The position numbers were made by a program, and so were the translations under genes. A DNA stretch of 32,000 bases. Source: Nostoc mirabile CHAB5784 (lineage in GTDB: Bacteria; Cyanobacteriota; Cyanobacteriia; Cyanobacteriales; Nostocaceae). The notes below the pieces were generated by a model. The model was not told where the DNA came from, made no database searches, and was given only the letters and a program-made list of their open reading frames with translations. This document shows, in pieces, positions 3,747 through 32,000 of the stretch (positions are counted from its first letter, which is position 1; the number at the start of each line of letters is the position of its first letter). The stretch covers positions 18,504-50,503 of the forward strand of contig NZ_JAIVFS010000053.1 of assembly GCF_020829645.1 (NCBI RefSeq), in the 5' to 3' direction.

Positions 3747-5396
3747 ATGGCTCGTACTCCTACATTAAATTTTGATCGCGGCACATTAATTTTGCATCCA
3801 CCACCACGCGGCAAAGGTTGGATGGATTATGCTACGTGGGATGATAGAGTTGAAAAATTCCGCATTCCAGCAATTAGATACCGATCGCTAGTGGAAGCAC
3901 TACAAGCGGAAGATGTTTATTTTATCGATGAGGCAAAGCAATTTTATCCTGTAGATTTGGTTTCCAGTTTGGAAATGGAACCCTATCCCCACCAGACTGA
4001 GGCGCTAGCAGCTTGGAAACTGGCGGGTAGACAGGGGGTCGTCGTACTTCCGACGGCGGCGGGAAAGACTTATTTAGCGCAAATGGCGATGCAGTCAACG
4101 CCGCGCACGACGCTAATTGTGGTGCCAACTTTGGATTTGATGCATCAGTGGTATGCACACTTGGTAGCGGCTTTCCCCGATGCTGAGGTGGGATTGTTGG
4201 GGGGTGGTTCGCGGGATAGAACGGCAATTCTAGTTGCAACTTATGATAGTGCAGCAATTCACGCTGAGACGTTGGGAAATCAATATGCGTTGCTTGTTTT
4301 TGACGAATGTCATCATTTACCAACAGATTTTAATCGGGTGATTGCTGAATATGCGATCGCACCTTATCGCCTTGGACTCTCCGCTACACCAGAACGCACC
4401 GATGGTAAACACGCTGACTTAAATATCCTCATTGGTCAAGAAGTATATCGCAAACGCGCTGAAGATTTGGCGGGGAAGGCGTTAGCAGAACATGAAATTG
4501 TCCAAATTAAGGTAAAGTTATCGCAACTTGAGCGGGAAAGATACAATCAACTAATTCAAACTCGCAACGACTTTTTAAAGCAATCAAAGATTTCTTTAGG
4601 GAGTCTGCAAGGTTGGCAAATGTTCGTGCAAATGAGTGCTAGATCGCAATCTGGACGTAGGGCGATGTTAGCGCACCGAGAAGCCAAAGATATCGCTTTG
4701 GGTACTGATGGGAAGTTGCGAATTCTGATTGATTTATTGGCAGAACATTATCCGGCAAGAATTTTGATTTTTACTGCTGATAATGCGACGGTTTATCGCA
4801 TTTCTCAAGAGTTGCTAATTCCGGCAATTACTCATCAAACTCCTGTGAAGGAACGCCATGAGATATTAACAAAGTTTCGGGAGGGTAAATATAATACTTT
4901 GGTTGCTTCTCATGTGTTGAATGAAGGGGTTGATGTACCTGCGGCTTCTGTGGCGATTATTTTATCGGGGACGGGTTCGGCTAGGGAGTATACTCAGCGC
5001 TTGGGGAGGATTTTACGAAAGGGGAATATTGAGAATAAGCAGGCGATTTTGTATGAGGTGGTGGCGGAGGATACGAGTGAGGAGGGGACTTCGGCTAGGC
5101 GGAGAGGGGAGAGGAGAGACGAACCGCAGAGGCGCAAAGGACGCAGAGAGGAGGAGGAGAAGAGAGGGAAGTTACAGGTTGTGTATGGGAGTGGGAAGGA
5201 AAGGAGTTTGAAGGCTGCGGAACAGTTAGAAATTAATTATTCAGTCCAAAATCGTTCGACTGAGCAAAGCCGTTCGCGTAGCGTTCCGCAGGAAAGTCCA
5301 AAATCTAAAATCCAAAATTCAGCAGATGTTACCGACAGATTTACTGATGCATCGCCAAAACGGGGAGGAGATCATTCCGAAGAGACTGAAGATTGA
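3747..5396 (+). CDS. XPB/Rad25-like SF2 DNA helicase with a charged, low-complexity C-terminal tail
   Basis: Motif I is LPTAAGKT, motif II is FDECHH and motif III is SATPER. The C-terminal helicase lobe reads HQTPVKERHEILTKFREGKYNTLVASHVLNEGVDVP and TQRLGRILR. The N-terminus LNFDRGTLIL is typical of XPB-type damage-recognition domains. A DUF790 gene lies immediately downstream. Confidence 0.8.
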   Translation: MARTPTLNFDRGTLILHPPPRGKGWMDYATWDDRVEKFRIPAIRYRSLVEALQAEDVYFIDEAKQFYPVDLVSSLEMEPYPHQTEALAAWKLAGRQGVVVLPTAAGKTYLAQMAMQSTPRTTLIVVPTLDLMHQWYAHLVAAFPDAEVGLLGGGSRDRTAILVATYDSAAIHAETLGNQYALLVFDECHHLPTDFNRVIAEYAIAPYRLGLSATPERTDGKHADLNILIGQEVYRKRAEDLAGKALAEHEIVQIKVKLSQLERERYNQLIQTRNDFLKQSKISLGSLQGWQMFVQMSARSQSGRRAMLAHREAKDIALGTDGKLRILIDLLAEHYPARILIFTADNATVYRISQELLIPAITHQTPVKERHEILTKFREGKYNTLVASHVLNEGVDVPAASVAIILSGTGSAREYTQRLGRILRKGNIENKQAILYEVVAEDTSEEGTSARRRGERRDEPQRRKGRREEEEKRGKLQVVYGSGKERSLKAAEQLEINYSVQNRSTEQSRSRSVPQESPKSKIQNSADVTDRFTDASPKRGGDHSEETED

Positions 5397-6540
5397 TCAG
5401 AAAACTTCGGAGTTGGCGATTGAGTTAATTAATTATTTTCAATCAGCAGTGGGGAAGACTCAAGGTGTGCTTGAGCGACAATTGACTGATTTTGAAGGAG
5501 ATTCTACAGATTATCGGGTGAAGCGGGGATTAGCTTATATTCTCAAAAGCAGTTTTTGCACTTTTGAGGTGGTTAGTCCTTTGGAGCCACAGATGTTAAG
5601 AGAACGGGTGTTTTCGTTGGCTGCAAAGTCGGTTTCTAGTCGAGAATATACACAAGTTACTTTGAGTAAAATTGCTGATGAATTAACTCAAGAACTTGAG
5701 CGGGAAGTTTTATTAGAACAGGTTCGGAATGGACTCTATGCTGATTTATCTGAAAATAAAATTTTGACAGTGTTTGATGCACCAACAGCGCCAGATTTGT
5801 TAAATCGATATAACTTATCTCAGGTGCAGGGTGTATTTTATAAGGCCAGTCAATTGGTGTTAAATGCTCACCGAAATGTTCCGGGTGAATATAAGCTGTT
5901 ATTTCGCTATTTGAAGTTGTTTCAATTGATGGCTTATATTGAAGGTGATGCTGACCACGGGTTTACAATTACGATAGATGGGCCGACGAGTTTGTTTAAT
6001 CCTAGTACGCGATATGGGTTAGCGATCGCTAAACTTATTCCGGCTTTACTTCACGTTACTAAATGGAGTCTTTCGTCGATTCTCCAAACCCGCGATGCTT
6101 ATACAAATACTTGGAAAACTGGACGTTTTACTCTCAATTCCGAATGTGGTTTGGTATCCCATTATCCACCAGGTAAACCCTACGATAGTATGCTAGAAGC
6201 ATCCTTTGCTGATAAGTGGGATGCGTTGAAAAGTGGTTGGGCGTTAGAGCGAGAAGTTGATTTGATACCGATTCCTGGTAGCGTAATGATTCCTGATTTT
6301 CGCTTGGTGCATTCTGATGGACGTACTTTCTTGTTAGAAATTGTTGGTTATTGGCGACCAGAATATTTACAAAAGAAGTTTTCTCAGGTGCGGAAGGCTG
6401 GACGTGATGACTTGATTTTGGCTATTTCCGAGCGGCTTAATTTAGAAAAAGCGGGAGTAAAATTAAATGATGTCCCCGCGAGAATTGTTTGGTTTAAAGA
6501 TAAGTTATTGCCAAAAGCTGTGTTAGCTGTAATGGATTGA
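5326..6540 (+). CDS. DUF790 family nuclease (Bax1-like partner of XPB)
   Basis: 404 aa with the N-terminus MLPTDLLMHRQNGEEIIP. The C-terminal PD-(D/E)XK-like block is MIPDFRLVHSDGRTFLLEIVGYWRPEYLQKKF. Its start overlaps the helicase ORF by 71 nt. Confidence 0.75.
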   Translation: MLPTDLLMHRQNGEEIIPKRLKIDQKTSELAIELINYFQSAVGKTQGVLERQLTDFEGDSTDYRVKRGLAYILKSSFCTFEVVSPLEPQMLRERVFSLAAKSVSSREYTQVTLSKIADELTQELEREVLLEQVRNGLYADLSENKILTVFDAPTAPDLLNRYNLSQVQGVFYKASQLVLNAHRNVPGEYKLLFRYLKLFQLMAYIEGDADHGFTITIDGPTSLFNPSTRYGLAIAKLIPALLHVTKWSLSSILQTRDAYTNTWKTGRFTLNSECGLVSHYPPGKPYDSMLEASFADKWDALKSGWALEREVDLIPIPGSVMIPDFRLVHSDGRTFLLEIVGYWRPEYLQKKFSQVRKAGRDDLILAISERLNLEKAGVKLNDVPARIVWFKDKLLPKAVLAVMD

Positions 6541-6555
6541 TTAAGGATAAATGAG

Positions 6556-6798
6556 ATGAAAATTATAGAAACAATTGCCACAGTTACCAAAGATGGTAAT
6601 ATTACAGCCCAATTACCATTGGATATTCCAGAGGGTGAGCATCAGGTGGTGATAGTAATTGATGAAAAGCCTGTGGTAGAGAAACCAGAGAGCAAACAAA
6701 AGCGTCCTCCTCTAAACTTTCCTGTGCATAATTATGGGCCTTGGCCTGAAAATCTTTCTTTAAGACGTGAGGATATGTATGGTGATTGGGGGCGGTAA
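6556..6798 (+). CDS. Putative VapB-type antitoxin, copy 1 of 3
   Basis: 80-aa ORF (MKIIETIATVTKDGNITAQLPLDIPEGEHQVVIVIDEK...). It is about 90 percent identical in nucleotides to copy 3, which precedes an intact PIN gene. Confidence 0.6.
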   Translation: MKIIETIATVTKDGNITAQLPLDIPEGEHQVVIVIDEKPVVEKPESKQKRPPLNFPVHNYGPWPENLSLRREDMYGDWGR

Positions 6799-6877
6799 TC
6801 CTGTTTTTCTGGACACGAACATCTTAATGTATGCAAATGTGTCTGAATATCGCTTTTACCAAGTAGTGATGTATTAA
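6779..6877 (+). pseudogene. 5' stub of a PIN (VapC) toxin gene, 32 codons
   Basis: Reads MVIGGGNPVFLDTNILMYANVSEYRFYQVVMY*. It matches the first ~27 codons of the intact PIN gene at 7450, then breaks at the duplication junction CAAG/TAGTGATGTATTAATC. Confidence 0.7.
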
Positions 6878-6892
6878 TCTAATAGAAATACT

Positions 6893-7129
6893 ATGAAAAC
6901 TATAGAAACAATTGCCACAGTTACAAAAGATGGTAAAATTACAGCGCAGTTACCATTGGATATTCCAGAAGGTGAACATCAGGTGGTAATAGTAATTGAT
7001 GAAAAGCTTTTGACTGAAGAAACGGAGAAGAAAGAAAAGAAAGCACCTCTCAAATTTTCCGCCTATCCTGTAGGATTAGTCTCGGAAAGTTTAACTTTCC
7101 GCAGAGAAGACCTTTATGCAAACGACTAA
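6893..7129 (+). CDS. Putative VapB-type antitoxin, copy 2 of 3 (divergent C-terminal half)
   Basis: 78-aa ORF. The first 38 aa are nearly identical to copies 1 and 3, and the remainder (LLTEETEKKEKKAPLKFSAYPVGLVSESLTFRREDLYAND) diverges. Confidence 0.55.
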   Translation: MKTIETIATVTKDGKITAQLPLDIPEGEHQVVIVIDEKLLTEETEKKEKKAPLKFSAYPVGLVSESLTFRREDLYAND

Positions 7130-7211
7130 TAACCCTGTATTCATCGATACGAATATTTTAGTTTATGCAAATGTGTCCGAATCTCCCTTTCACCAAGTAG
7201 TGATGTATTAA
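7116..7211 (+). pseudogene. 5' stub of a PIN (VapC) toxin gene, 31 codons
   Basis: Reads MQTTNNPVFIDTNILVYANVSESPFHQVVMY*. It has the same junction sequence as the first stub. Confidence 0.7.
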
Positions 7212-7226
7212 TCTAATAGAAATAGT

Positions 7227-7469
7227 ATGAAAAGTATAGAAACAATTGCCACAGTTACCAAAGATGGTAAGATTACAGCGCAGTTACCATTGGATATTCC
7301 AGAGGGTGAGCATCAGGTGGTAATAGTAATTGATGAAAAGCCTTTAGTACAGAAAGCAGAGAGCAGGGAGAAACGTCCTCCTCTAAACTTTCCTGTAGAT
7401 AATTATGGTTATTGGCCTGAGAATCTTTCTCTAAGACGTGAGAATATGTATGGTGATTGGGGTCGCTAA
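7227..7469 (+). CDS. Putative VapB-type antitoxin, copy 3 of 3 (adjacent to the intact toxin)
   Basis: 80-aa ORF that overlaps the PIN gene start by 20 nt. Confidence 0.65.
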   Translation: MKSIETIATVTKDGKITAQLPLDIPEGEHQVVIVIDEKPLVQKAESREKRPPLNFPVDNYGYWPENLSLRRENMYGDWGR

Positions 7470-7902
7470 CTCTGTATTTCTGGACACGAACATCTTGGTG
7501 TATGCAAATGTGTCCGAATCTCCCTTTCACCAAGCAGCACTACAAGCTATTGAAAATCGTTATGACGCAGGAATTGAGTTATGGATTAGTCGCCAGGTGT
7601 TGCGGGAATTCTTGATGATTCTCAGTCGTCCACAAGCATTGATGAATCCCCGACCTGTTGCGATCATAATTGAGCGTACCCGATTTTTTCAAGCTCAATT
7701 TCGAGTAGCTGACGAAACCGCCCAAGTGACAGAAAGACTTTTATCTCTAATGGAGCAAATTGCTATTGGTGGGAAGCAAGTTCATGATGCAAATATTGTC
7801 GCCACGATGCTGGTTTATGGTATTCCTCAATTACTAACTCACAACACAGGTGATTTTGCAAGATTTTCTGGGTTAATTACTGTCTTGCCATTACAAGGTT
7901 AG
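7450..7902 (+). CDS. vapC: PIN-domain toxin (VapC family)
   Basis: Carries the FLDTNILVYA N-terminal acidic motif and HDANIVATM later. I prefer the ATG at 7450 (MVIGVANSVFLDTN) over the track start at 7438. Confidence 0.8.
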   Translation: MVIGVANSVFLDTNILVYANVSESPFHQAALQAIENRYDAGIELWISRQVLREFLMILSRPQALMNPRPVAIIIERTRFFQAQFRVADETAQVTERLLSLMEQIAIGGKQVHDANIVATMLVYGIPQLLTHNTGDFARFSGLITVLPLQG

Positions 7903-9840: not shown

Positions 9841-10230
9841 ATGGAGCCTGTAACCCTGACAGCAGCTGCGATCGCAACCTTAGTGATTACAAAAGCTTTT
9901 GAGAAAACTGGCGAAATCCTGGGAGAAAAAGCTTTAGAGCAAGGTGGTAACTTATTATCATTGCTTAAGCGTAAAGAACCTACCACAGCGACAGCTATCG
10001 AACTAGCTCAAGCACAACCTTTAGATTATGGTCAAGCTTCTCTGGTTGAGCAGGTAGAAGAAGCTGCAAAGAAAGACCCTGAAATTGCTCAAGCTGTTAA
10101 GGATGTGGCGGATACTGTTAAATCTCAACCCTCTATCATCCAGAATTTTACGAACACAGTTGATAAAAATTATGGCGGGAATGTTGGGAACGTTTCTAAT
10201 GACAACCGCAATCAAACGTTTAATTTCTGA
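9841..10230 (+). CDS. 129-aa helical protein; probable detached N-terminal module of the downstream STAND NTPase
   Basis: It has a hydrophobic first helix (MEPVTLTAAAIATLVITKAF), amphipathic helices and an N/G-rich tail. It is in the same reading frame as the 10306 ORF, separated only by TGA (10228-10230) and 25 sense codons. Confidence 0.6.
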   Translation: MEPVTLTAAAIATLVITKAFEKTGEILGEKALEQGGNLLSLLKRKEPTTATAIELAQAQPLDYGQASLVEQVEEAAKKDPEIAQAVKDVADTVKSQPSIIQNFTNTVDKNYGGNVGNVSNDNRNQTFNF

Positions 10231-10305
10231 CTACAGTCGCCTGAACGGGAACGGGTAAAGTCAAATCCCTCTACTGAAACACCGCAAAATTTACCCCTGA
10301 GTGGG

Positions 10306-13251
10306 GTGGTGGAGTTTGTTGGACGTGAAGATGAATTGCAAATCCTGCATGAGATGTTGCAGGAAAATAATCAGGTGGTAATTGCTGCGATCGCTGGCAT
10401 GGGTGGACTGGGTAAAACAGAACTGGCCTTACAATATGCAATGGCTCACCGTGAAACTTACAAAGGTGGAATTTGCTGGTTGCTGGCAAAGGCTGGAGAT
10501 GTGGGTATTCAAATTGTGCAGTTTGCCAGAACTCAGCTTGATTTAAACCCACCAGAAGATTTTGATATACTCGCCCAAGTGCAATACTGCTTTCGGCTTT
10601 GGTGCGAGGGTAATGTGCTGCTAGTATTAGACGATGTTGGAGAATATCAACAAGTTAAGCCTTACCTACCTCCGCCATCTTCCCGGTTTAAAGTGTTGAT
10701 TACCACGCGGGAAAAATTACAGCCGCCGATAGTGCTATTACATTTAGATGTGCTGAAACCACTAGCGGCAATCAATTTATTAAAATCTTTGGTGGGTAGA
10801 AAACGACTGCAACATGAGCCTTGGATTGCTAGAAAACTTTGTAAGTGGCTGGGATATTTGCCCTTGGGTTTAGAATTAGTCGGGCGTTATTTGTTAGGTG
10901 ATGAGGAATTATCTCTAGCAGAAATGCTGCAAGACTTGGAAAATGAGCGTCTGACGAATGAATCTTTAGACGAAGCTCGACCAGAAATGACTGCTAAATT
11001 GGGTGTGGCTGCTGCTTTTGAGTTGAGTTGGCGACGTTTGCGAGAAAATGCCCAACTTTTAGGCTGTCTTCTGAGTTTATGTGCCCTAGCTCCGATTCCT
11101 TGGAAACTGGTGGAGGCTATAACAATAGCAGATGAAGCTCAAGATTGGAAAAAAGCCAGACGTGATTTGTTACAGTTACATCTACTCCAATATAAGGGTG
11201 AGAAAATCTACCAACTGCATCCATTGCTAAGGGAGTTTTTCCAATATAAGCTTACAGGTTTAGAACAGGCAGAGGAATTAAAGCGATCGCTTTGCGAGGT
11301 AATGGTAGCAGTTGCAAAAGAAATTTCTGAAAACGCTACCCTTAAGCAAATTACTGCTGTTTCCCCTGCCATTCCTCATATAGCTGAAGTAGCGACTCAT
11401 CTCATTCAATACGTCAGCGATGATGATTTACCTTGGCCTTTCGTCGGCAACGCTAAATTTTATAATGCTCAAGGTTTATATAACCAAGCTTTACCCTGGT
11501 TGGAACAATGTCTAGAAGTCACTAAAAAGCGCTTGGGTGAAGAACATCCATATGTCGCCTCTAGCCTCAGCTTCTTCGCGTTACTCTACCACTCCCAAGG
11601 CAGATACAGCGAAGCCGAACCCCTTTTCATCCAAGCATTGGCACTCAAGCGTCAACTGCTGGGTGAAGAACATCAAGATGTCGCCATTAGCCTCAACAAC
11701 CTAGCAGAACTCTACCGTTCCCAAGGCAGATACAGCGAAGCCGAACCCCTTTACATCCAAGCATTGGCACTCAGGCGTCAACTGCTGGGTGAAGAACATC
11801 AAGATGTCGCCATTAGCCTCAACAACCTAGCAGAACTCTACCGTTCCCAAGGCAGATACAGCGAAGCCGAACCCCTTTTCATCCAAGCATTGGCACTGAT
11901 GCGTCAACTGCTCGGAGATGAACATCCATCTGTCGCCACTAGCCTCAACAACTTAGCTAATCTCTACAACTCCCAAGGCAGATACAGCGAAGCCGAACCC
12001 CTTTTCATCCAAGCATTGGCACTCACGCGTCAACTGCTGGGTGAAGAACATCCAGATGTCGCCCAAAGCCTCAACAACCTTGCCTTACTCTACAACTCCC
12101 AAGGCAGATACAGCGAAGCCGAACCCCTTTTAATCCAAGCTTTGGCACTGATGCGTCAACTGCTGGGTGAAGAACATCCAGATGTCGCCCAAAGCCTCAA
12201 CAACCTAGCTTCTCTCTACAACTCCCAAGGCAGATACAGCGAAGCCGAACCCCTTTTCATCCAAGCATTGGCACTGATGCGTCAACTGCTGGGTGAAGAA
12301 CATCCATCTGTTGCCCAAAGCCTCAACAACCTAGCAGAACTCTACAACTTCCAAGGCAGATACAGTGAAGCCGAACCCTTTTACATCCAAGCATTGGCAC
12401 TCATGCGTCAACTGCTCGGAGATGAACATCCATCTGTCGCCCAAAGCCTCAACAACCTAGCTAATCTCTACAACTCCCAAGGCAAATACAGCGAAGCCGA
12501 ACCCCTTTACATCCAAGCTTTGGCACTCAGGCGTCAACTGCTCGGAGATGAACATCCATCTGTCGCCTCTAGCCTCAACAACCTAGCTTCTCTCTACTAC
12601 TCCCAAGGCAGATACAGCCAAGCCGAACCCCTTTTCATCCAAGCATTGGCACTGATGCGTCAACTGCTCGGAGATGAACATCCATCTGTCGCCTCTAGCC
12701 TCAACAACCTAGCTTATCTCTACTGTTCCCAAGGCAGATACAGCGAAGCCGAACCCCTTTTCATCCAAGCTTTAGCACTCTGGCGCAAACTGCTCGGAGA
12801 TGAACATCCATCTGTCGCCACTAGCCTCAACAACCTAGCGTCACTTTACTACTCCCAAGGCAGATACAGCGAAGCCGAACCCCTTTACATCCAAGCTTTG
12901 GCACTCAGGCGTCAACTGCTCGGAGATGAACATCCAGATGTCGCCTCTAGCCTCAACAACCTAGCGTTACTCTACGACTCCCAAGGCAGATACAGCGAAG
13001 CCGAACCCCTTTACATCCAAGCTTTGGCACTCATGCGTCAACTGCTCGGAGATGAACATCCATCTGTCGCCACTAGCCTCAACAACCTAGCTTCTCTGTA
13101 CTACTCCCAAGGCAGATACAGCGAAGCCGAACCCCTTTACATCCAAGCTTTGGATATTTTTGAGCGACAGTTAGGGTTGAATCATCCCAATACTATTAGT
13201 GTTCGTGAAAATTTAGCATATTTGCGCGATCGCCTCCCCCCACCACAGTAA
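10306..13251 (+). CDS. NB-ARC (STAND) NTPase with a C-terminal array of TPR repeats
   Basis: Walker A is GMGGLGKTELA, Walker B is LLVLDDV, and the LITTRE and GYLPLGLELV (GLPL-like) motifs are present. These are followed by 13 units of 42-aa TPR. There is no ATG start, and the open frame continues upstream to the TGA of the previous ORF. Confidence 0.85.
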   Translation: MVEFVGREDELQILHEMLQENNQVVIAAIAGMGGLGKTELALQYAMAHRETYKGGICWLLAKAGDVGIQIVQFARTQLDLNPPEDFDILAQVQYCFRLWCEGNVLLVLDDVGEYQQVKPYLPPPSSRFKVLITTREKLQPPIVLLHLDVLKPLAAINLLKSLVGRKRLQHEPWIARKLCKWLGYLPLGLELVGRYLLGDEELSLAEMLQDLENERLTNESLDEARPEMTAKLGVAAAFELSWRRLRENAQLLGCLLSLCALAPIPWKLVEAITIADEAQDWKKARRDLLQLHLLQYKGEKIYQLHPLLREFFQYKLTGLEQAEELKRSLCEVMVAVAKEISENATLKQITAVSPAIPHIAEVATHLIQYVSDDDLPWPFVGNAKFYNAQGLYNQALPWLEQCLEVTKKRLGEEHPYVASSLSFFALLYHSQGRYSEAEPLFIQALALKRQLLGEEHQDVAISLNNLAELYRSQGRYSEAEPLYIQALALRRQLLGEEHQDVAISLNNLAELYRSQGRYSEAEPLFIQALALMRQLLGDEHPSVATSLNNLANLYNSQGRYSEAEPLFIQALALTRQLLGEEHPDVAQSLNNLALLYNSQGRYSEAEPLLIQALALMRQLLGEEHPDVAQSLNNLASLYNSQGRYSEAEPLFIQALALMRQLLGEEHPSVAQSLNNLAELYNFQGRYSEAEPFYIQALALMRQLLGDEHPSVAQSLNNLANLYNSQGKYSEAEPLYIQALALRRQLLGDEHPSVASSLNNLASLYYSQGRYSQAEPLFIQALALMRQLLGDEHPSVASSLNNLAYLYCSQGRYSEAEPLFIQALALWRKLLGDEHPSVATSLNNLASLYYSQGRYSEAEPLYIQALALRRQLLGDEHPDVASSLNNLALLYDSQGRYSEAEPLYIQALALMRQLLGDEHPSVATSLNNLASLYYSQGRYSEAEPLYIQALDIFERQLGLNHPNTISVRENLAYLRDRLPPPQ
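11533..13170 (+). repeat. 13 tandem 126-bp coding repeats (42-aa TPR units) with very high internal identity
   Basis: The unit is LGEEHPDVAQSLNNLAxLYxSQGRYSEAEPLxIQALALxRQL, and adjacent units are near-identical at nucleotide level. Confidence 0.9.
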
Positions 13252-13420
13252 AATTTGACTTCTGGGCAAAGCATACCGTGATAAAACTGAAAAGAGCGTT
13301 AGCGGAGCTTACCGAAGGTATCGCTTTAACTCGGCCTTTCCTGTTCTGAACTCTGAGGTAGAATGAGGTTCCCCACAACCTACGCCAGTTTTAGTTTTTA
13401 GCCTTAACCCAAGCGTATTG

Positions 13421-13932
13421 TTATATAGGCAATCGCCTTACTCGGAAAGTTTCATTACTTACAGAAATAATTGTCCCTAACTCTAAATCTTCCTGGCATT
13501 CACTCAAAACTTGAGTCAACCGTTCATTAATTGCATCATAATTTTCGTTCCCCAACCTAAACAAAATCACACTGGGTAAACTATCCCCACTCACGGCTAA
13601 AAGTTGGGCAAAATCTAAATCTATAGCACTTCTCTGTTGAGTACAATACAGACCTAACCCCCAACCCCTTCCCTACTAGCGTTGGGGAGTAAAATTCAAA
13701 GCCTCTCTCCTTTTAGGAGAGAGGAATGGAAGTGAGGTCAAAGTGTATTGCTTCCATTCGAGAACCGCTATATAGTTAATCAAATTCTTCCTTCTGCACG
13801 GGCTTTAATTAAAATCTCATTATCTGGTAGTCTTTGCAAACCTTCATCGCGCAAATGCACCACATCATAACCAGCACCACGCAACCAAGTTACAGTGCGT
13901 AGTGAAATTCCCATATCTGCCAAAAACTTCAT
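13421..13932 (-). pseudogene. DUF5615-type (Mut7-C/PIN-like) toxin gene, inactivated by a TGA codon and a MITE insertion
   Basis: The N-terminal fragment is MKFLADMGISLRTVTWLRGAGYDVVHLRDEGLQRLPDNEILIKARAEGRI-TGA-LTI. The C-terminal fragment is IDLDFAQLLAVSGDSLPSVILFRLGNENYDAINERLTQVLSECQEDLELGTIISVSNETFRVRRLPI*. The frames join exactly when 149 bp are removed. Confidence 0.8.
13627..13770. mobile_element. 144-bp MITE flanked by 5-bp target-site duplication TATAG
   Basis: TATAG occurs at 13622-13626 and 13771-13775. The ends are imperfect TIRs containing TTCTC...CAATACA. The interior has a G/C-rich hairpin (CTCTCTCCTTTTAGGAGAGAG). Confidence 0.7.
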
Positions 13933-13941
13933 TATTACTTG

Positions 13942-14214
13942 TTAAGCACTTTTGAAGGTATAAACCCGTTCTTGAGTCAACCACGCTGCATAAAGAAGAG
14001 ATTGACGAATATCTTCTGCTTCTAAATCAGGATATTCTTCTAAAATTTCTTCTATAGGCTTTCCATGAGCTACCAAATTTACCACTAAAGAAACTGGAAT
14101 TCGCATCCCGCGAATGCAAGCTTGTCCAGCCATAATGCTAGGGTCAAATGTAATTCTCTCCAGACCTAACATAAATGATCGCTCCAAAATCTTTTTTATC
14201 GTTCTGAGGTGCAA
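13942..14214 (-). CDS. DUF433-domain protein (putative antitoxin partner of DUF5615)
   Basis: Reads ITFDPSIMAGQACIRGMRIPVSLVVNLVAHGKPIEEILEEYPDLEAEDIRQSLLYAA. The likely true start is M15 (14172). It ends 9 nt before the DUF5615 ATG. Confidence 0.75.
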   Translation of the reverse strand: MHLRTIKKILERSFMLGLERITFDPSIMAGQACIRGMRIPVSLVVNLVAHGKPIEEILEEYPDLEAEDIRQSLLYAAWLTQERVYTFKSA

Positions 14215-14407
14215 TGATATTGTAAAGCCTAACGCTCTATTTTTGATTTTAAACCCACAAGCGATCGCCTCCCCTCAAATCCAGAATAAACTACATGGAG
14301 CTACAAATTTACAGGTTTTATGAAAAGCGTACCGTAATAAAACTGAAAAGTGCGATCGCCTAGACTAAAATTCATATTGAATTAAGTAAAAATGCCTGAT
14401 TGCTTAC

Positions 14408-14680
14408 TCAAAAGCAGCTTTTACTTTCTCAAAAGCAGCTTTTACTTTCCCTTTTTAGTGTTTTCCACAAGCAAAAGCAGCTTTTACTTCTTCAAAAGCA
14501 GCTTTTAATCTCGCATTTTAGTGTTTTCCACAAACAAAAGCAGCTTTTACTTCTTCAAAAGCAGCTTTTAATTTCGCATTTTAGTGTTTTCCACAAACAA
14601 AAGCAGCTTTTACTTCCTCATTTTGGTGTTTTCCGCAAGCAAAAGGAGCTTTTACTTTCTCAAACCCCAGTTTGCTTTCT
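14408..14680. repeat. Thirteen consecutive 21-bp units: palindrome-bearing type A and DnaA-box-like type B (iteron-like array)
   Basis: Type A is tCAAAAGCAGCTTTTACTTyy with the palindrome AAAAGC-A-GCTTTT. Type B is gCATTTTAGTGTTTTCCACAA. The order is A A B A A B A A B A B A x, and all spacings are multiples of 21 bp. Confidence 0.9.
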
Positions 14681-14835
14681 CATTTGAGTAATTTACGCAT
14701 TCATTTTGGATATCATTGAGCCGAAAGAAAAGCGTAGGCGTAGCCCGCACTTCGACAAAGCTCAGTGACCATCGGAGACATCGCTTTAGTTTAGAGTATA
14801 AATCGACAAGCGATCGCCTAGTTTAGAGATGAGCA

Positions 14836-15225
14836 TTACTCAAATAAATCAAATCCCTTTTCGCTTCTCAACTTTCTGTCAAAAGTTGCTGTTGAACTAC
14901 AACCAGAATTTTGAGCAATTACACCAATTAAATAATCAGAAAAATCTGCACTTCCCTGCTGAAATCGCTGTAATGCTTGATAAACTATAGAACGATTTTC
15001 TAACTCAAATACAGAACATTGCAGCATCAAATCTATGGTGTTACTAATTTCTTCACTACTAAATTGATAAGGGTTCCCGCGCAAAACCCAGACTAATTCA
15101 CAGAGAACTATATTAGCAACAAAACATTGCTCTCCCCTTTCGATAATTTCCGCAGCTTGCTTCCACTGCTTTTCATCATCTTTTGTCAGGTAACGCACTA
15201 AAATATTTGTATCAAGTCCAATCAC
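14836..15225 (-). CDS. vapC: PIN-domain toxin (VapC family)
   Basis: The N-terminus is MIGLDTNILVRYL and the protein is 129 aa. It overlaps the upstream AbrB-type antitoxin gene by 14 nt. Confidence 0.85.
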   Translation of the reverse strand: MIGLDTNILVRYLTKDDEKQWKQAAEIIERGEQCFVANIVLCELVWVLRGNPYQFSSEEISNTIDLMLQCSVFELENRSIVYQALQRFQQGSADFSDYLIGVIAQNSGCSSTATFDRKLRSEKGFDLFE

Positions 15226-15457
15226 TTGAACCTTCTTGGATTGCTGCTTCCATTTCTTCTAAAGTTGCGCTTTTCATCCCCGGACGGTGTAAAATCCCCG
15301 ATAAGCTTTGGATGGGGATATTTAGGGGAATCAGTTTAACTGTTCCATTTTCATCAATGACAAAATCAACCTTACTACCTGGATCAAGGTTAAGATAATC
15401 CCTAATTTCTTGAGGAATAGTTATTTGTCCTTTACTGGTGATGGTCGCACTAGCCAT
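15212..15457 (-). CDS. vapB: AbrB/SpoVT/MazE-fold antitoxin (VapB)
   Basis: Reads MASATITSKGQITIPQEIRDYLNLDPGSKVDFVIDENGTVKLIP, a looped-hinge-helix signature. Confidence 0.85.
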   Translation of the reverse strand: MASATITSKGQITIPQEIRDYLNLDPGSKVDFVIDENGTVKLIPLNIPIQSLSGILHRPGMKSATLEEMEAAIQEGSSDWT

Positions 15458-15549
15458 ACGCGTTTTCCTTACATCAGTTCCTTGTTTAAGGATAACGTCT
15501 ATTGACTAATCCAGAAAGCGATCGCTCTTATGTGGTTGTGAATAATGGC

Positions 15550-15840
15550 GAGCGATGTCTGCCTTAAAAAGTTTGGACCGGAGGAAACCTCCGCTCCAAC
15601 TTTTCGCTACGACGGGCTATTCGGCGTCGCCCAACAAAAAATCAGCTACATAAATCATATAATTCTCTTCAGAAACACAGAAAAGCGTAGACGCAAAGCG
15701 GTGAGGGGGTCGCAGTCTTGGCGGTTCCCGTCGATTGCTCTCTTCGCAGCGTTAGCGACTGTGCGTAGCGTCACCCCCGAACCCGTTGGCGCAGCCTCTG
15801 TAGAGAAGGGCTTGTCGTCAGACATCGCTTCTCGGCAAAT
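15550..15840. repeat. Cluster of nested small dispersed repeats (SDR-like)
   Basis: GCGATGTCT...ACGACGGGCTATTCGGCGTCGCC is split by a 48-bp hairpin element (15561-15608). Further interleaved copies of GCGTAGACG and CGTCAGACATCGC-type units follow. Confidence 0.6.
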
Positions 15841-15841
15841 C

Positions 15842-16105
15842 TTAAAGGCTATTCCATTCTTCTGGCGTGATTTCCCGCTCTAGAATAACCTCAACTTCCC
15901 CAATCATCATCCGCAATTGCGGTACAGAATACTCATCATTAGAAGGAATAGTTAGACGATATTCCCCGTAAACCATAAACTGATGTCTTGTTCCAGAAAA
16001 AAGCCCCTCAAACCCAATCCATCGTAATTTCTTCAAAAAATCCCGACGCTTACAGGGTATCCATCGGCTCAAGAGTCGGCTCCTTGTTGAGGTCAATATT
16101 ATCAA
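15842..16105 (-). CDS. hicA: HicA-family toxin (start uncertain: TTG 16105 or TTG 16072)
   Basis: Reads CKRRDFLKKLRWIGFEGLFSGTRHQFMVYGEYRLTIPSNDEYSVPQLRMMIGEVE, which is HicA/YcfA-like. It overlaps the 3' end of hicB. Confidence 0.7.
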   Translation of the reverse strand: MIILTSTRSRLLSRWIPCKRRDFLKKLRWIGFEGLFSGTRHQFMVYGEYRLTIPSNDEYSVPQLRMMIGEVEVILEREITPEEWNSL

Positions 16106-16322
16106 TTACTGGTAGAGAATGTCCCAGCTTTAACCCAAGCAAAATCCAGTCTTCCAGTGTTGAGCGTAATTCATCCTCACACTCGCGCAAAGTTGATGCA
16201 AAAGCTATCACTCCTTTGCAAACAGGAATTCTACCTGCAAATGTACCATCTTCTAACTTGTCATAAATTGCCTGAGCGATCGCTCGATCAACATAGTCGC
16301 TCAAAATAAACCTTATCGCCAT
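16050..16322 (-). CDS. hicB: HicB-family antitoxin
   Basis: 90 aa. Reads FAGRIPVCKGVIAFASTLRECEDELRSTLEDWILLGLKLGHSLPVID, a HicB N-terminal-domain-like sequence. Confidence 0.7.
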   Translation of the reverse strand: MAIRFILSDYVDRAIAQAIYDKLEDGTFAGRIPVCKGVIAFASTLRECEDELRSTLEDWILLGLKLGHSLPVIDNIDLNKEPTLEPMDTL

Positions 16323-16522
16323 GAAATCTCGCGTTGTACTACCAGTTTAATCTTATGTTAAATGATGGTGTTTCGCCGATGAAGCGTCTACGCTCTACTT
16401 TCAAGTGTAAATCTACAGGCGATGTCTACGACGGGCTATTCGGCGTCGCCTGTGAGAGTTGAGAGATGAATATAATTGCGTCAAGGTAATCAACCCAATT
16501 GATTTTATTTTAGAGGTATGAA

Positions 16523-16732
16523 ATGAAAATTAAAGTTATTGACGAACAAGAAAATTTACAAGAAGTGATGCAGGTTCTACTCACCCACTTAGAACCATCG
16601 AAGGTAATGAAATTTTGGGCAGCTTGTAAACTAGGTGAAGGCGATTATTTGGAACTTAAAGAAAAACTGTTTGCTGAAGAAACAGTTGCCAGTTTATATG
16701 CCAAAGTCAAAGAATATCAAGATGAATCCTAA
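16523..16732 (+). CDS. Hypothetical 69-aa acidic protein
   Basis: Clean ORF with ATG. I do not recognise the family. Its stop coincides with the breakpoint of the vapB fragment on the opposite strand. Confidence 0.4.
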   Translation: MKIKVIDEQENLQEVMQVLLTHLEPSKVMKFWAACKLGEGDYLELKEKLFAEETVASLYAKVKEYQDES

Positions 16733-16824
16733 TCAACCTTACTACCAGTATCAAGATTAAGATAATCCCTAATTTCTTGAGGAATAGTTATTTGTCCTTT
16801 GCTCGTGATGGTCGCACTAGCCAT
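16729..16824 (-). pseudogene. Truncated second copy of the AbrB-type vapB gene (first 31 codons only)
   Basis: Reads MASATITSKGQITIPQEIRDYLNLDTGSKVD*. The sequence, including the upstream leader, is near-identical to 15365-15480. Homology ends at about 16731. Confidence 0.75.
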
Positions 16825-16954
16825 TACTCAAGTTCCTTACATCAGTTCTTTACTTGATTATAATGTTTATTTACCAATCTAGTATTAATCATCACGGCAT
16901 CAAAGTAATTGAGGTAAAATATCCTTAACTCCAAATACTTGAGGTGCAACAAAG

Positions 16955-31865: not shown

Positions 31866-31915
31866 AGAGACGCGATTAATCGCGTACAGGAGAGACGCGA
31901 TTAATCGCGTACAGG
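31866..31915. repeat. Two tandem 25-bp units, each with the perfect 16-bp palindrome ACGCGATTAATCGCGT
   Basis: AGAGACGCGATTAATCGCGTACAGG occurs twice (31866-31890 and 31891-31915), 170-220 nt upstream of clpC. Confidence 0.85.
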
Positions 31916-32000
31916 AGTTCTCAATTTGACAATTACCTTGTCAGTGCAGAAGATGATTTTCTTTTGCCTTTTCTGCTCCTCATCTCTGGGCTAAACTTAA

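What the first reader, a model, noticed from the sequence alone, without database searches (positions are those of the whole stretch)
14408..14680. Unannotated 273-bp array with strict 21-bp phasing: seven perfect AAAAGC-A-GCTTTT palindromes interleaved with TTTTCCACA (DnaA-box-like) motifs
Thirteen back-to-back 21-mers make up the array. Type A units (tCAAAAGCAGCTTTTACTTyy) carry a 13-bp palindrome. It is perfect at 14410, 14431, 14473, 14494, 14536, 14557 and 14599, and degenerate (AAAAGGAGCTTTT) at 14641. Type B units (gCATTTTAGTGTTTTCCACAA) carry TTTTCCACA at 14461-14469, 14524-14532 and 14587-14595, plus TTTTCCGCA at 14629-14637. The order is AAB AAB AAB AB A x. Palindrome spacings are only 21 or 42 bp, and box spacings are 63, 63 and 42 bp, so every site faces the same side of the helix. 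TTTTCCACA fits the DnaA-box consensus TTWTNCACA and is the variant used for cyanobacterial oriC prediction. An AT-rich stretch (14361-14399) abuts the array. No dnaA, dnaN, rep or par gene lies in the window, and the array sits between two TA operons. It could be a plasmid- or island-type iteron origin or an oriC-like remnant. It could also be a datA-like DnaA-titrating site, a partition centromere, or a multi-operator for an unknown palindrome-binding regulator. The 95-aa ORF drawn over it (QKQLLL repeats) is a translation artefact of the repeat. The three perfect boxes arose by unit duplication, so they are not independent evidence.
Basis: partly seen in the sequence, partly recalled or inferred. 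Interest (0 to 1): 0.75.

Follow-up and report, generated by a model that had tools for sequence, protein, structure and literature searches.

The report
Nostoc 21-bp terminator-like repeat array
The 273-bp array is real, but it is one copy of a non-coding 21-bp tandem-repeat family found at several intergenic sites in Nostoc chromosomes and built from terminator-like hairpin arms, so it is not a replication origin or a DnaA-box cluster.

Summary
There are seven perfect AAAAGCAGCTTTT palindromes and one degenerate copy, three TTTTCCACA and one TTTTCCGCA, all in strict 21-bp phase.

The origin/DnaA reading fails. Homologous arrays occur in about 39 Nostocaceae loci, several per genome. At least two lie 0.8 Mb apart on one closed chromosome. 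All are intergenic and none sits near a replication or partition gene. Across relatives the "DnaA box" is mostly TTTTCCGCA, and whole sub-families lack it. No reading frame is conserved, and there is no Rfam, plasmid or phage match.

In unrelated bacteria the same palindrome pair is an ordinary intrinsic-terminator hairpin. Six Nostoc arrays keep a perfect 13-bp hairpin, always at the array's first unit pair. Stem (13) plus loop (8) gives 21 bp. Because each arm is itself a palindrome, the two arms are also direct repeats, so replication slippage can expand them.

Palindrome cores vary about four times less than spacers. Arrays sit mostly between convergent or co-directional genes, typically about 100 bp after an NB-ARC/TPR gene. 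The phased A4/T4 tracts also predict extreme intrinsic curvature.

Best reading: an amplified bidirectional terminator or insulator module. An operator or scaffold role for an unknown protein is not excluded. Interest is moderate to low.

The parts
14352..14407 (+). Conserved left flank. It holds HIP1 GCGATCGC (14352-14359), a -10-like TAAAAT (14366-14371) and a degenerate first unit (14387-14407, TAAAAATGCCTGATTGCTTAC).
   Evidence: The flank is conserved in the window-type (fam1) loci and is homologous to the left flank of sub-family 3. The promoter-like match CTGAAA-17-TAAAAT is found in the window and in L099, but is no more frequent than in shuffles.
14408..14470 (+). Module 1: A (14408-14428), A (14429-14449), B variant (14450-14470, carries TTTTCCACA).
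   Evidence: The A-A pair folds as a 6+6-bp hairpin with an A.A mismatch, dG -11.7 kcal/mol.
14471..14533 (+). Module 2: A, A, B (GCATTTTAGTGTTTTCCACAA).
14534..14596 (+). Module 3: A, A, B.
14597..14659 (+). A (14597-14617), B2 (14618-14638, TTTTCCGCA, the commonest form in the family), A with degenerate core AAAAGGAGCTTTT (14639-14659).
14660..14679 (+). C-type unit TCAAACCCCAGTTTGCTTTC, with its own mini-palindrome CAAAC-CCCA-GTTTG.
   Evidence: It recurs in relatives and forms A-C-B modules in L120 and L121. Most variants change the 4-nt loop rather than the stem.
14680..14722 (+). Conserved right flank made of two degenerate B-like units. Relatives read TTTTGGTATATCATTGAGCC, an extended -10-like TGGTATATC. 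The window copy has lost one T (TGGATATC).
14723..14821 (+). Junction segment of short dispersed repeats ending in HIP1 (14810-14817). The same junction motif bounds the neighbouring toxin-antitoxin cassettes.
   Evidence: Direct-repeat families D4 and D6. This part alone matches Nostoc plasmids.

Best explanation
The array is one copy of a Nostocaceae-specific, non-coding intergenic element made of 21-bp head-to-tail units, flanked by degenerate units.

The A unit is one arm (13 nt, A4-GCAGC-T4) plus the 8-nt loop of an intrinsic-terminator-type hairpin. The B unit is the T-rich tail. Because the arm is itself a palindrome, the two arms of the ancestral hairpin were direct repeats 21 bp apart as well as inverted repeats. 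Replication slippage or unequal exchange could therefore amplify arm+loop units (A), arm-tail units (AB) and hairpin-tail units (AAB).

In transcripts from either strand, each neighbouring A-A pair folds into a 12-13-bp hairpin followed by a U-rich stretch. The array is thus most likely an iterated, bidirectional terminator or insulator between converging or tandem transcription units. In the window these units are the VapBC and DUF433/DUF5615 cassettes. In the ancestral arrangement the array followed the NB-ARC/TPR gene. The strong predicted curvature of the duplex is a by-product of the phased A4/T4 tracts.

Shown here: family membership, several chromosomal copies per genome, non-coding status, hairpin potential, gene context, and higher conservation of core than spacer. 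Inferred: origin by slippage from a terminator, and present-day termination activity.
For: 1. Family. About 39 Nostoc, Desmonostoc and Tolypothrix loci carry arrays whose palindromes are spaced only 21 or 42 bp apart (gap 8 in 49 cases, gap 29 in 53, nothing else). Several genomes have 2-4 loci. Nostoc sphaeroides CCNUC1 chromosome CP045226.1 has arrays near 2.39 Mb and 3.18 Mb.

2. Terminator link. The non-Nostoc hits inspected (the 13 with a 21- or 42-bp spacing) are, apart from one (L029), single hairpins of the form AAAAAGCSGCTTTT-loop-AAAAGCSGCTTTTTT, the classic intrinsic-terminator shape.

3. Ancestral hairpin. Six arrays keep a perfect 13-bp hairpin with complementary centres (T/A or A/T). 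In all six it is the first unit pair, that is, the poorly homogenised edge of the array. The L105 pair is called terminator-like by the scan.

4. Folding. dG is -11.7 kcal/mol on the + strand and -15.4 on the - strand for window A-A pairs, and -15.5 to -16.8 for perfect pairs. The array's + strand is 38% T.

5. Constraint. In six arrays with identical unit order, pairwise difference is 0.041 in the palindrome core against 0.168 in the spacer (loop). It is 0.042 in the B T-tracts against 0.117 in the rest of B.

6. Palindromy kept through paired changes. An in-register edge unit, AAAATGSCATTT, differs from A by G7>T with C11>A and by C8>G with G10>C. The C unit mostly varies in its loop.

7. 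Context. All arrays are intergenic. Flanking genes are convergent in 13 cases, co-directional in 15 and divergent in 3. In about 10 loci the array starts 40-400 bp (typically about 100 bp) after the stop codon of an NB-ARC/TPR gene on the same strand.

8. No other terminator-like site lies between the neighbouring genes and the array in the window, or on the gene strand after the NB-ARC/TPR stop in L099. From established knowledge, cyanobacteria lack Rho and so depend on intrinsic termination.
Against: The window hairpins carry a central A.A (or U.U) mismatch and only four G-C pairs. The consensus terminator scan calls none of them.

Arrays with an A-B-A-B order (L044, L047) would have 29-nt loops.

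Some arrays have homogenised cores that are no longer palindromic (L017, L061, L088), so the constraint is not absolute.

Three arrays lie between divergent genes, and sub-family 3 always sits about 90 bp upstream of a molybdopterin oxidoreductase gene. That placement fits an upstream regulatory role at least as well.

Core conservation and palindromy would also be expected of a protein-binding site, and template-switch mutation can restore palindromes without selection.

Many loci are orthologous, so the context counts are not independent. There are no expression data.
Confidence: 0.45

Rival explanations
1. The array is a set of binding sites on one helical face for an unidentified Nostocaceae DNA-binding protein that recognises A4-GCAGC-T4 (with B as a second site or spacer). 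The protein wraps an intrinsically curved scaffold that regulates an adjacent promoter or acts as a boundary element.
For: The strict 21-bp period equals 2.00 helical turns. The core is conserved about four times better than the spacer.

Predicted curvature is the most extreme in the 32-kb window: end-to-end/contour 0.095 (Bolshoy), 0.58 (De Santis) and 0.40 (AA-wedge). These values lie in the 1-4% tail of permutations that keep the period, and correspond to 20-30 degrees per unit.

Sub-family 3 always lies about 90 bp upstream of one gene. Arrays lie 110-170 bp upstream of a conserved 122-141-aa gene in L017, L044 and L062. An extended -10-like TGGTATATC sits at the right end in most relatives.

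Curved DNA upstream of cyanobacterial promoters is known to activate transcription (PMC2758279).
Against: No candidate protein travels with the arrays, and neighbouring genes differ from locus to locus. Most window-type arrays face the 3' ends of genes.

Conservation of the two half-sites is unequal: G7 86% and C8 81% against G10 98% and C11 93%. Units with different palindromic cores (C and AAAATGSCATTT) sit in the same register, which a single dimeric protein would not explain.

Any 21-bp tandem repeat sums its small bends. The wedge parameters were recalled from memory.
Confidence: 0.25
2. The array is a functionless by-product: a minisatellite that expanded by slippage from a hairpin or other seed and persists neutrally in gene-poor, recombination-prone islands.
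For: Unit number and order vary between loci (8-13 units). The array edges are degenerate. Within-array variants are homogenised, including broken palindromes in L017, L061 and L088. The taxonomic range is narrow and patchy. The array region diverges faster than the flanking genes (86-93% against 93-97% identity). Arrays sit among toxin-antitoxin cassettes and dispersed repeats.
Against: Variability is four to seven times lower in the core and T-tracts than in the spacers. The unit order AABAABAABABA is identical in six arrays from six different assemblies. Paired changes preserve palindromy.
Confidence: 0.2
3. The array is an RNA gene: a repeat-structured small RNA transcribed from the conserved TAAAAT element at its left end. 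It might act, for example, as a decoy or type III-like antitoxin for the PIN-domain RNases of the surrounding toxin-antitoxin cassettes.
For: A conserved -10-like box lies at the left end. The modules are repeated hairpins. The array is bounded by the same junction repeats as the toxin-antitoxin cassettes. The minus-strand fold has a z-score of -3.3.
Against: There is no Rfam match. The promoter-like match is no better than in shuffles. No toxin gene is consistently adjacent. Sub-families 2 and 3 lie outside toxin-antitoxin islands. The order of A and B units is not fixed, so no single RNA structure is conserved.
Confidence: 0.05
4. The array is a replication element: an iteron-type origin, an oriC remnant or a datA-like DnaA-titrating cluster.
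For: The direct repeats have a 21-bp period. An AT-rich stretch abuts the array. Three TTTTCCACA boxes fit the consensus TTWTNCACA that is used to locate Nostoc oriC (PMC5987646).
Against: The box is TTTTCCGCA in 46 of 86 family B units, and three sub-families lack it. All boxes point the same way and are duplicates. One chromosome carries at least two arrays, and several genomes carry several. The window has no dnaA, dnaN or rep gene. The array part matched nothing in PLSDB plasmids or IMG/VR. The window-wide count of box-like sites equals chance, 15 against 13.45. There is no GC-skew extremum at the array.
Confidence: 0.02
5. The array is a partition centromere: tandem repeats wrapped by a ParR/ParG-type ribbon-helix-helix protein.
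For: Short tandem repeats with predicted superhelical curvature resemble the parC sites of R1 and pSK41 (my knowledge). Ribbon-helix-helix and AbrB-type antitoxin genes lie nearby.
Against: No parA, parM or parR gene lies next to any copy. The arrays are chromosomal and occur at several loci. They are absent from the Nostoc plasmids searched.
Confidence: 0.02
6. The array encodes a repeat protein, either the 95-aa QKQLLL ORF or the minus-strand EEVKAAF heptads.
For: An open 95-aa frame exists in the window. The 21-bp unit equals 7 codons.
Against: No frame stays open across 15 related arrays. The minus-strand frame has stops in every B unit of the window. There is no Pfam hit. Only 16 hits were found in 5.8 billion proteins, all Nostoc 'hypothetical' singletons. 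Variation is not codon-periodic but follows the core/spacer division.
Confidence: 0.01

Closest known systems
Bidirectional intrinsic (Rho-independent) terminators
   Same: A-tract, G+C core and T-tract with a hairpin of about 13 bp and an 8-nt loop. The very same sequence pair serves as a single terminator-like hairpin in Bacteroidota, Clostridia and others. Location is after gene 3' ends and between convergent genes.
   Different: Here one arm plus loop is iterated head to tail 8-13 times. Most hairpins have a central mismatch and few G-C pairs. Termination has not been shown.
REP/BIME clusters of enterobacteria and BOX elements (boxA-boxB(n)-boxC) of Streptococcus pneumoniae
   Same: Intergenic and non-coding, with palindromic units. 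The build is modular, with conserved ends and a variable number of internal units. Elements are often at 3' ends and present at several loci per genome.
   Different: Units here are strictly direct, not alternating in orientation. The period is exactly 21 bp. Copy number is a handful per genome, not hundreds. No RAYT-type transposase link was tested or seen. There are no terminal inverted repeats.
Iteron arrays of theta-replicating plasmid origins (RK2, P1, F, pSC101)
   Same: Direct repeats of about 20 bp spaced two helical turns apart, next to an AT-rich stretch and a DnaA-box-like motif.
   Different: No Rep gene is present. The arrays are chromosomal and occur at several loci. The unit is palindromic. 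The DnaA-like box is not conserved. No plasmid carries the array.
Curved upstream DNA of cyanobacterial promoters (rpoD1 P2 and psbA2 CIT of Microcystis aeruginosa K-81; PMC2758279)
   Same: Phased A/T tracts give intrinsic curvature. Some arrays lie just upstream of promoters (sub-family 3; L017, L044, L062).
   Different: Those elements are unique sequences, not near-exact tandem repeats. Most arrays here are not upstream of a gene.
STRR heptamer repeats of heterocystous cyanobacteria
   Same: A lineage-restricted tandem intergenic repeat of the same organisms. The C unit contains the STRR1 motif CCCCAGT.
   Different: The unit here is 21 bp with a palindromic core and two or three unit types, not a 7-bp unit.

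Membership tests
oriC / DnaA-box cluster (including datA-like sites) | Several DnaA boxes (TTWTNCACA) conserved in related sequences | tested here: not met
   Of 86 B units in 25 related arrays, 46 read TTTTCCGCA and 32 read TTTTCCACA. Sub-families 1 and 2 have no B unit, and sub-family 3 has TATATTCAGCAA instead.
oriC / DnaA-box cluster (including datA-like sites) | One site per replicon, next to dnaA/dnaN or at a GC-skew switch | tested here: not met
   At least two arrays lie on chromosome CP045226.1. The window has no dnaA or dnaN. There is no skew extremum at 14.4 kb.
oriC / DnaA-box cluster (including datA-like sites) | DnaA binding | not testable with these tools
   Needs EMSA or ChIP.
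Iteron-type plasmid origin | Direct repeats of 17-22 bp phased at about two helical turns | tested here: met
   21-bp period, equal to 2.00 turns.
Iteron-type plasmid origin | Adjacent rep gene, located on a plasmid or mobile replicon | tested here: not met
   No rep gene was seen in the window or at the ~37 Nostocaceae arrays whose neighbouring ORFs were listed. Arrays lie on contigs of 6.5-8.7 Mb. The array matched no PLSDB plasmid (caveat: BLAST's low-complexity filter was on).
Partition centromere (parC/parS/parH type) | Adjacent parA/parM and a centromere-binding protein gene | tested here: not met
   None in the window or in related loci.
Intrinsic terminator | G+C-containing hairpin followed by a T run | tested here: inconclusive
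   The L105 first pair passes the scan (13 pairs, loop 8). Window pairs fold at -11.7 to -15.4 kcal/mol but have a central mismatch and fail the scan.
Intrinsic terminator | Lies downstream of a gene's 3' end | tested here: met
   28 of 31 arrays have at least one gene end facing them. The array typically starts about 100 bp after the NB-ARC/TPR stop codon.
Intrinsic terminator | Transcripts end there | not testable with these tools
   Needs 3'-end mapping or a read-through reporter.
REP/BIME/BOX-like intergenic repeat element | Strictly intergenic, palindromic units, several loci per genome, modular ends | tested here: met
REP/BIME/BOX-like intergenic repeat element | High copy number (tens to hundreds) and single dispersed units | tested here: not met
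Only one stray palindrome-like site lies elsewhere in the 32-kb window, a 1-mismatch match at 5545.
REP/BIME/BOX-like intergenic repeat element | Cognate RAYT/Y1 transposase | not tested
   Whole genomes could not be searched.
Protein-coding gene | Reading frame conserved among relatives; homologues with known domains | tested here: not met
Known RNA family (Rfam 15) | Match at gathering score | tested here: not met
   No match at gathering score. The best sub-threshold hits have E >= 0.12 and are to unrelated eukaryotic families.
Type III toxin-antitoxin RNA repeat array | Repeat array followed by a terminator and a ToxN-like toxin gene | tested here: not met
   The neighbours are type II pairs on the opposite strand. 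There is no constant neighbour across loci.

The most novel reading that the evidence does not exclude
The arrays are cis-acting nucleoprotein scaffolds. On this reading, about 270 bp of DNA pre-bent through roughly a full circle carries eight phased palindromes bound by an unidentified Nostocaceae protein. The scaffold would act as a boundary or recombination anchor next to NLR-like (NB-ARC/TPR) defence genes, around which toxin-antitoxin cassettes are exchanged.
Probability: 0.12. Interest if true: 0.65.

Novelty: new member of a known kind. Interest (0 to 1): 0.3.

Why it matters
The result removes a false origin or DnaA-site call from a Nostoc chromosome. It also explains a recurrent spurious "hypothetical protein" in Nostoc annotations.

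It documents a repeat family for which no published description was found in the held library. The family shows how a terminator hairpin whose arm is itself a palindrome can seed a tandem array with a period of stem plus loop.

If the modules do terminate transcription, they would be a compact natural insulator for Rho-less cyanobacteria and could be useful as a synthetic-biology part. If instead a protein binds them, they would identify a new regulator. Either way the biological stakes are modest.

Tried and rejected
- Rfam at gathering and E-value thresholds gave nothing relevant.
- Six-frame translation across 15 related arrays showed no conserved frame. Pfam on the 95-aa ORF found nothing. 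A search of 5.8 billion proteins gave 16 Nostoc-only singletons.
- PLSDB plasmids, near and distant modes: only the junction repeat at 14731-14791 matched, not the array.
- The IMG/VR pattern scan gave one chance hit in a giant-virus MAG.
- A test for terminal inverted repeats, as in a MITE, was no better than shuffles.
- Whole-array RNA folds gave z = -1.3 (+ strand) and -3.3 (- strand). These values are expected from the palindromes alone and are not decisive.
- The idea that a 122-141-aa gene downstream of arrays in L017, L044 and L062 encodes the cognate binder was dropped. The gene has no Pfam or NCBIfam family and is absent from the window.
- Literature searches for the palindrome, for 21-bp Nostoc repeats and for Nostoc minisatellites found no description.
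- One call failed on wrong-strand coordinates.
Full report
**1. Observation**

The sequence at 14408-14680 is exactly as described. AAAAGCAGCTTTT is perfect at 14410, 14431, 14473, 14494, 14536, 14557 and 14599, and AAAAGGAGCTTTT lies at 14641. The window holds 9 sites at <=1 mismatch against 0.33 expected by chance. TTTTCCACA occurs at 14461, 14524 and 14587, and TTTTCCGCA at 14629.

Read in 21-bp phase the order is AAB AAB AAB AB A plus a variant unit. Tandem Repeats Finder sees a 63-bp super-unit, 3.4 copies, 93% matches. The window is cyanobacterial in character, with HIP1 GCGATCGC sites and heptamer repeats, and its closest DNA and protein matches are all Nostoc.

The window carries chromosomal housekeeping genes (a Clp ATPase, a gene with OMP-decarboxylase and phosphoribosyltransferase domains, an AI-2E transporter) and a defence-type island. 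The island holds an XPB-like helicase with DUF790, a PD-(D/E)XK nuclease, an NB-ARC/TPR protein, an AAA_35 ATPase and several toxin-antitoxin pairs. No dnaA, dnaN, rep or par gene is present.

**2. The array is one member of a family**

Thirty-nine of these loci are Nostoc, Desmonostoc or Tolypothrix. In them the gap is always 8 (49 cases) or 29 (53 cases), which means a spacing of 21 or 42 bp.

Four sub-families share the core and the period but differ in the 8-bp spacer:
- The window type ("fam1") has A = TCAAAAGCAGCTTTTACTTTC and B = TCATTTTGGTGTTTTCCGCAA.
- Sub-family 1 has A-only arrays with spacer GCGACT.
- Sub-family 2 has A-only arrays with spacer CATGTC.
- Sub-family 3 has A plus TCATTTTGGTATATTCAGCAA.

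The window-type arrays also share both flanks, which read as degenerate A-like and B-like units in register. These flanks are recognisably homologous to those of sub-family 3. Six arrays from six different assemblies, the window included, have the identical unit order AABAABAABABA.

Several genomes contribute 2-4 loci. The closed chromosome of Nostoc sphaeroides CCNUC1 (CP045226.1, 6.48 Mb) carries arrays near 2.39 Mb and 3.18 Mb. The array part of the query matched no PLSDB plasmid (the low-complexity filter was on). It matched no IMG/VR contig apart from one chance hit.

**3. Why the origin/DnaA reading fails**

- Across 25 window-type arrays (24 related loci plus the window) the B-unit box is TTTTCCGCA in 46 of 86 units and TTTTCCACA in 32. 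TTTTCCACA belongs to the B variant that travels with the 63-bp super-unit. Sub-families 1 and 2 have no B unit, and sub-family 3 has a different sequence there.
- All boxes point the same way.
- Box-like sites in the rest of the window are at chance level, 15 against 13.45.
- More than one array lies on a single chromosome.
- No replication or partition gene accompanies any copy.
- Cumulative GC skew has no extremum at the array.

The consensus TTWTNCACA is indeed what Nostoc annotators use to find oriC (PMC5987646).

**4. The array is not coding and not a known RNA**

No frame remains open across 15 related arrays. The minus-strand "EEVKAAF" frame has a stop in every B unit of the window. The 95-aa ORF has no Pfam family. 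It has only 16 relatives among 5.8 billion proteins, all Nostoc "hypothetical proteins" in clusters of 1-5 members. The authors of the Nostoc N6 genome state that they removed such ORFs over mini-satellites. Rfam gives nothing at gathering score, and only noise below it.

**5. What the units are**

The non-Nostoc hits of the same scan are informative. Their gaps are spread over 8-29 nt, and the 13 printed (those with a 21- or 42-bp spacing) are, apart from one (L029), single hairpins of the form AAAAAGCSGCTTTT-loop-AAAAGCSGCTTTTTT, with complementary centres and a T run. This is the classic shape of a bidirectional intrinsic terminator.

In the Nostoc arrays two neighbouring A units form the same hairpin: a 13-nt arm, an 8-nt loop and a 13-nt arm. 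Stem plus loop equals 21. Because the arm is itself a palindrome, the two arms are direct repeats as well as inverted repeats, so replication slippage between them would duplicate exactly one 21-bp unit.

Six arrays still have a perfect hairpin with centres T/A or A/T. In all six this is the first unit pair, the edge of the array where homogenisation is weakest. The L105 pair is called terminator-like by the consensus scan (13 pairs, loop 8, tail TATTTCTCAT). Internal units all carry the same centre base, which gives an A.A or U.U mismatch. The window pairs fold at -11.7 kcal/mol on the + strand and -15.4 on the - strand, against -15.5 to -16.8 for perfect pairs. The B unit is T-rich and follows the hairpin as a tail. 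On the minus strand the hairpin is followed by UUUUGUUUGUGG. The array's + strand is 38% T.

**6. Evidence of constraint**

In the six arrays with identical unit order, mean pairwise difference is 0.041 in the 13-nt core against 0.168 in the spacer. It is 0.042 in the B T-tracts against 0.117 in the rest of B. Over 162 A units the A4 and T4 tracts are 95-100% conserved, the centre 81-98% and the spacer positions 48-98%.

Two other unit types keep self-complementarity with different sequences. An edge unit, AAAATGSCATTT, sits in register and differs from A by two paired changes (G7>T with C11>A; C8>G with G10>C). The C unit, CAAAC-CCCA-GTTTG, mostly varies in its loop.

This pattern favours a nucleic-acid hairpin over a single sequence-specific dimeric protein. 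Template-switch correction of quasi-palindromes could also produce it without selection.

**7. Context**

All arrays are intergenic. Of 31 with both neighbours resolved, 13 lie between convergent genes, 15 between co-directional genes and 3 between divergent genes. These counts are not independent, because many loci are orthologous.

In about ten loci the array begins 40-400 bp (typically about 100 bp) after the stop codon of an NB-ARC/TPR gene on the same strand. In the window a DUF433/DUF5615 cassette (13226-14260) has been inserted between that gene and the array. The cassette is flanked by direct repeats 13226-13303 and 14261-14359.

To the right of the array, different genomes carry VapBC, HicAB or other genes, mostly on the opposite strand. 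The consensus scan finds no other terminator-like site between the neighbouring genes and the array in the window, or on the gene strand after the NB-ARC/TPR stop in L099. From established knowledge, cyanobacteria lack Rho.

Some contexts do not fit a terminator. Sub-family 3 is always about 90 bp upstream of a molybdopterin oxidoreductase gene. In L017, L044 and L062 an array lies 110-170 bp upstream of a conserved 122-141-aa gene of unknown function, twice in a divergent setting.

**8. Curvature**

The A4 and T4 tracts alternate at 9 and 12 bp, and 21 bp is 2.00 helical turns in the Bolshoy model. I computed helix paths with three wedge parameter sets recalled from memory (Bolshoy 1991, De Santis, and an AA/TT wedge only). 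The script reproduces the known contrast between A4T4 (curved) and T4A4 (straight).

The array's end-to-end/contour ratio is 0.095, 0.58 and 0.40 in the three models. In the Bolshoy model it is the most curved stretch of its length in the 32-kb window; in the other two its first 147 bp lie below the window's first percentile. It lies in the 1-4% tail of permutations that keep the 21-bp period, and the bend is 20-30 degrees per unit. Nearly all arrays of every sub-family fall below about the first percentile of window background.

Curved DNA upstream of cyanobacterial promoters is known to stimulate transcription (PMC2758279). I treat the curvature as a likely by-product of terminator-type A and T tracts, but it keeps the scaffold/operator rival alive.

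**9. Verdict**

- What it is (high confidence): a copy of a Nostocaceae-specific, low-copy, non-coding 21-bp tandem-repeat element. It is not an origin, a DnaA site or a centromere.
- How it arose (moderate confidence, inferred): amplification of an intrinsic-terminator module whose arm is self-palindromic.
- What it does now (lower confidence, inferred): iterated bidirectional termination or insulation between cassettes.

The rivals are a binding or curved scaffold for an unknown protein, and no function at all.

The closest known kinds are intrinsic terminators and REP/BIME/BOX-type intergenic repeats. The array differs from them in its strict head-to-tail 21-bp build and its low copy number. 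I found no published description.

Noticed in passing
window 13226-16882: The region downstream of the NB-ARC/TPR gene is a mosaic of small cassettes: DUF433/DUF5615, the array, VapBC, HicAB and others. They are separated by recurring HIP1-containing junction repeats (13226-13303 ~ 14261-14359; 14233-14270 ~ 14782-14819 ~ 16391-16428). The same cassettes occur in different orders around the array in other Nostoc genomes (L059, L093, L094, L099, L104, L114, L117), which suggests cassette exchange by recombination at the junctions.
   Followed up: partly
window 13421-13932: The DUF5615 (PIN-like) toxin gene is split into two ORFs, 13780-13932 and 13421-13594. The ~185-bp insert between them carries a 10-bp-stem hairpin (13702-13724) and matches repeated DNA in L003 and L062. 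The gene is probably a disrupted toxin.
   Followed up: partly
window 15364-15514 and 16731-16882: The first ~94 nt of vapB plus its upstream region is duplicated (95% and 78% identity) 1.37 kb away without the rest of the operon. This looks like a remnant of a replaced VapBC cassette.
   Followed up: no
window 9841-10306: A 129-aa ORF with no Pfam family ends at a TGA (10228-10230) and is in the same frame as the NB-ARC/TPR ORF that follows. It may be an N-terminal effector domain cut off by a single stop codon (pseudogene, read-through or sequencing error). Its C-terminus (GGNVGNVSNDNRNQTFNF) is Asn/Gly-rich.
   Followed up: partly
window 11542-13153: The TPR region consists of 12.8 copies of a 126-bp unit at 90% identity. 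This is unusually homogeneous for a coding repeat. 126 = 6 x 21, but there is no sequence similarity to the 21-bp array.
   Followed up: no
window 6556-7534: A 334-bp unit is repeated 2.9 times at 75% identity. Each copy starts with an ATG-led small ORF (MKTIETIATVTKDGKITAQLPLDIPEGEHQVVIVIDEKPL...). The repeat lies just upstream of a PIN-domain gene (7438-7902) and may be a tandemly triplicated antitoxin-like gene.
   Followed up: no
L017 5623-5991; L044 6289-6714; L062 2601-3026: A conserved 122-141-aa protein of unknown function (40% identity between types, no Pfam or NCBIfam family) lies 110-170 bp downstream of arrays of two different sub-families, on the same strand. The array may form part of its upstream region.
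   Followed up: partly
window 31866-31917; L017 5150-5215; L120 3880-3945; L121 4255-4320: A ~25-bp element, AGAGACGCGAT(T/A)AATCGC..., occurs as direct or inverted pairs at the window's end and immediately beside arrays in three other loci. It is probably another Nostoc dispersed repeat.
   Followed up: no
window 15607-15631 and 16426-16450: An exact 25-nt repeat, CTACGACGGGCTATTCGGCGTCGCC, occurs at two cassette boundaries. It is related, in reverse orientation, to the GCGTAGCCCG...GGAGACATCGC motif to the right of the array.
   Followed up: no
window 3747-6540: An XPB-type helicase (XPB_DRD, ResIII, Helicase_C) is followed by a DUF790 protein, a Bax1-like nuclease partner (by my recollection). 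This pairing is better known from archaea.
   Followed up: no
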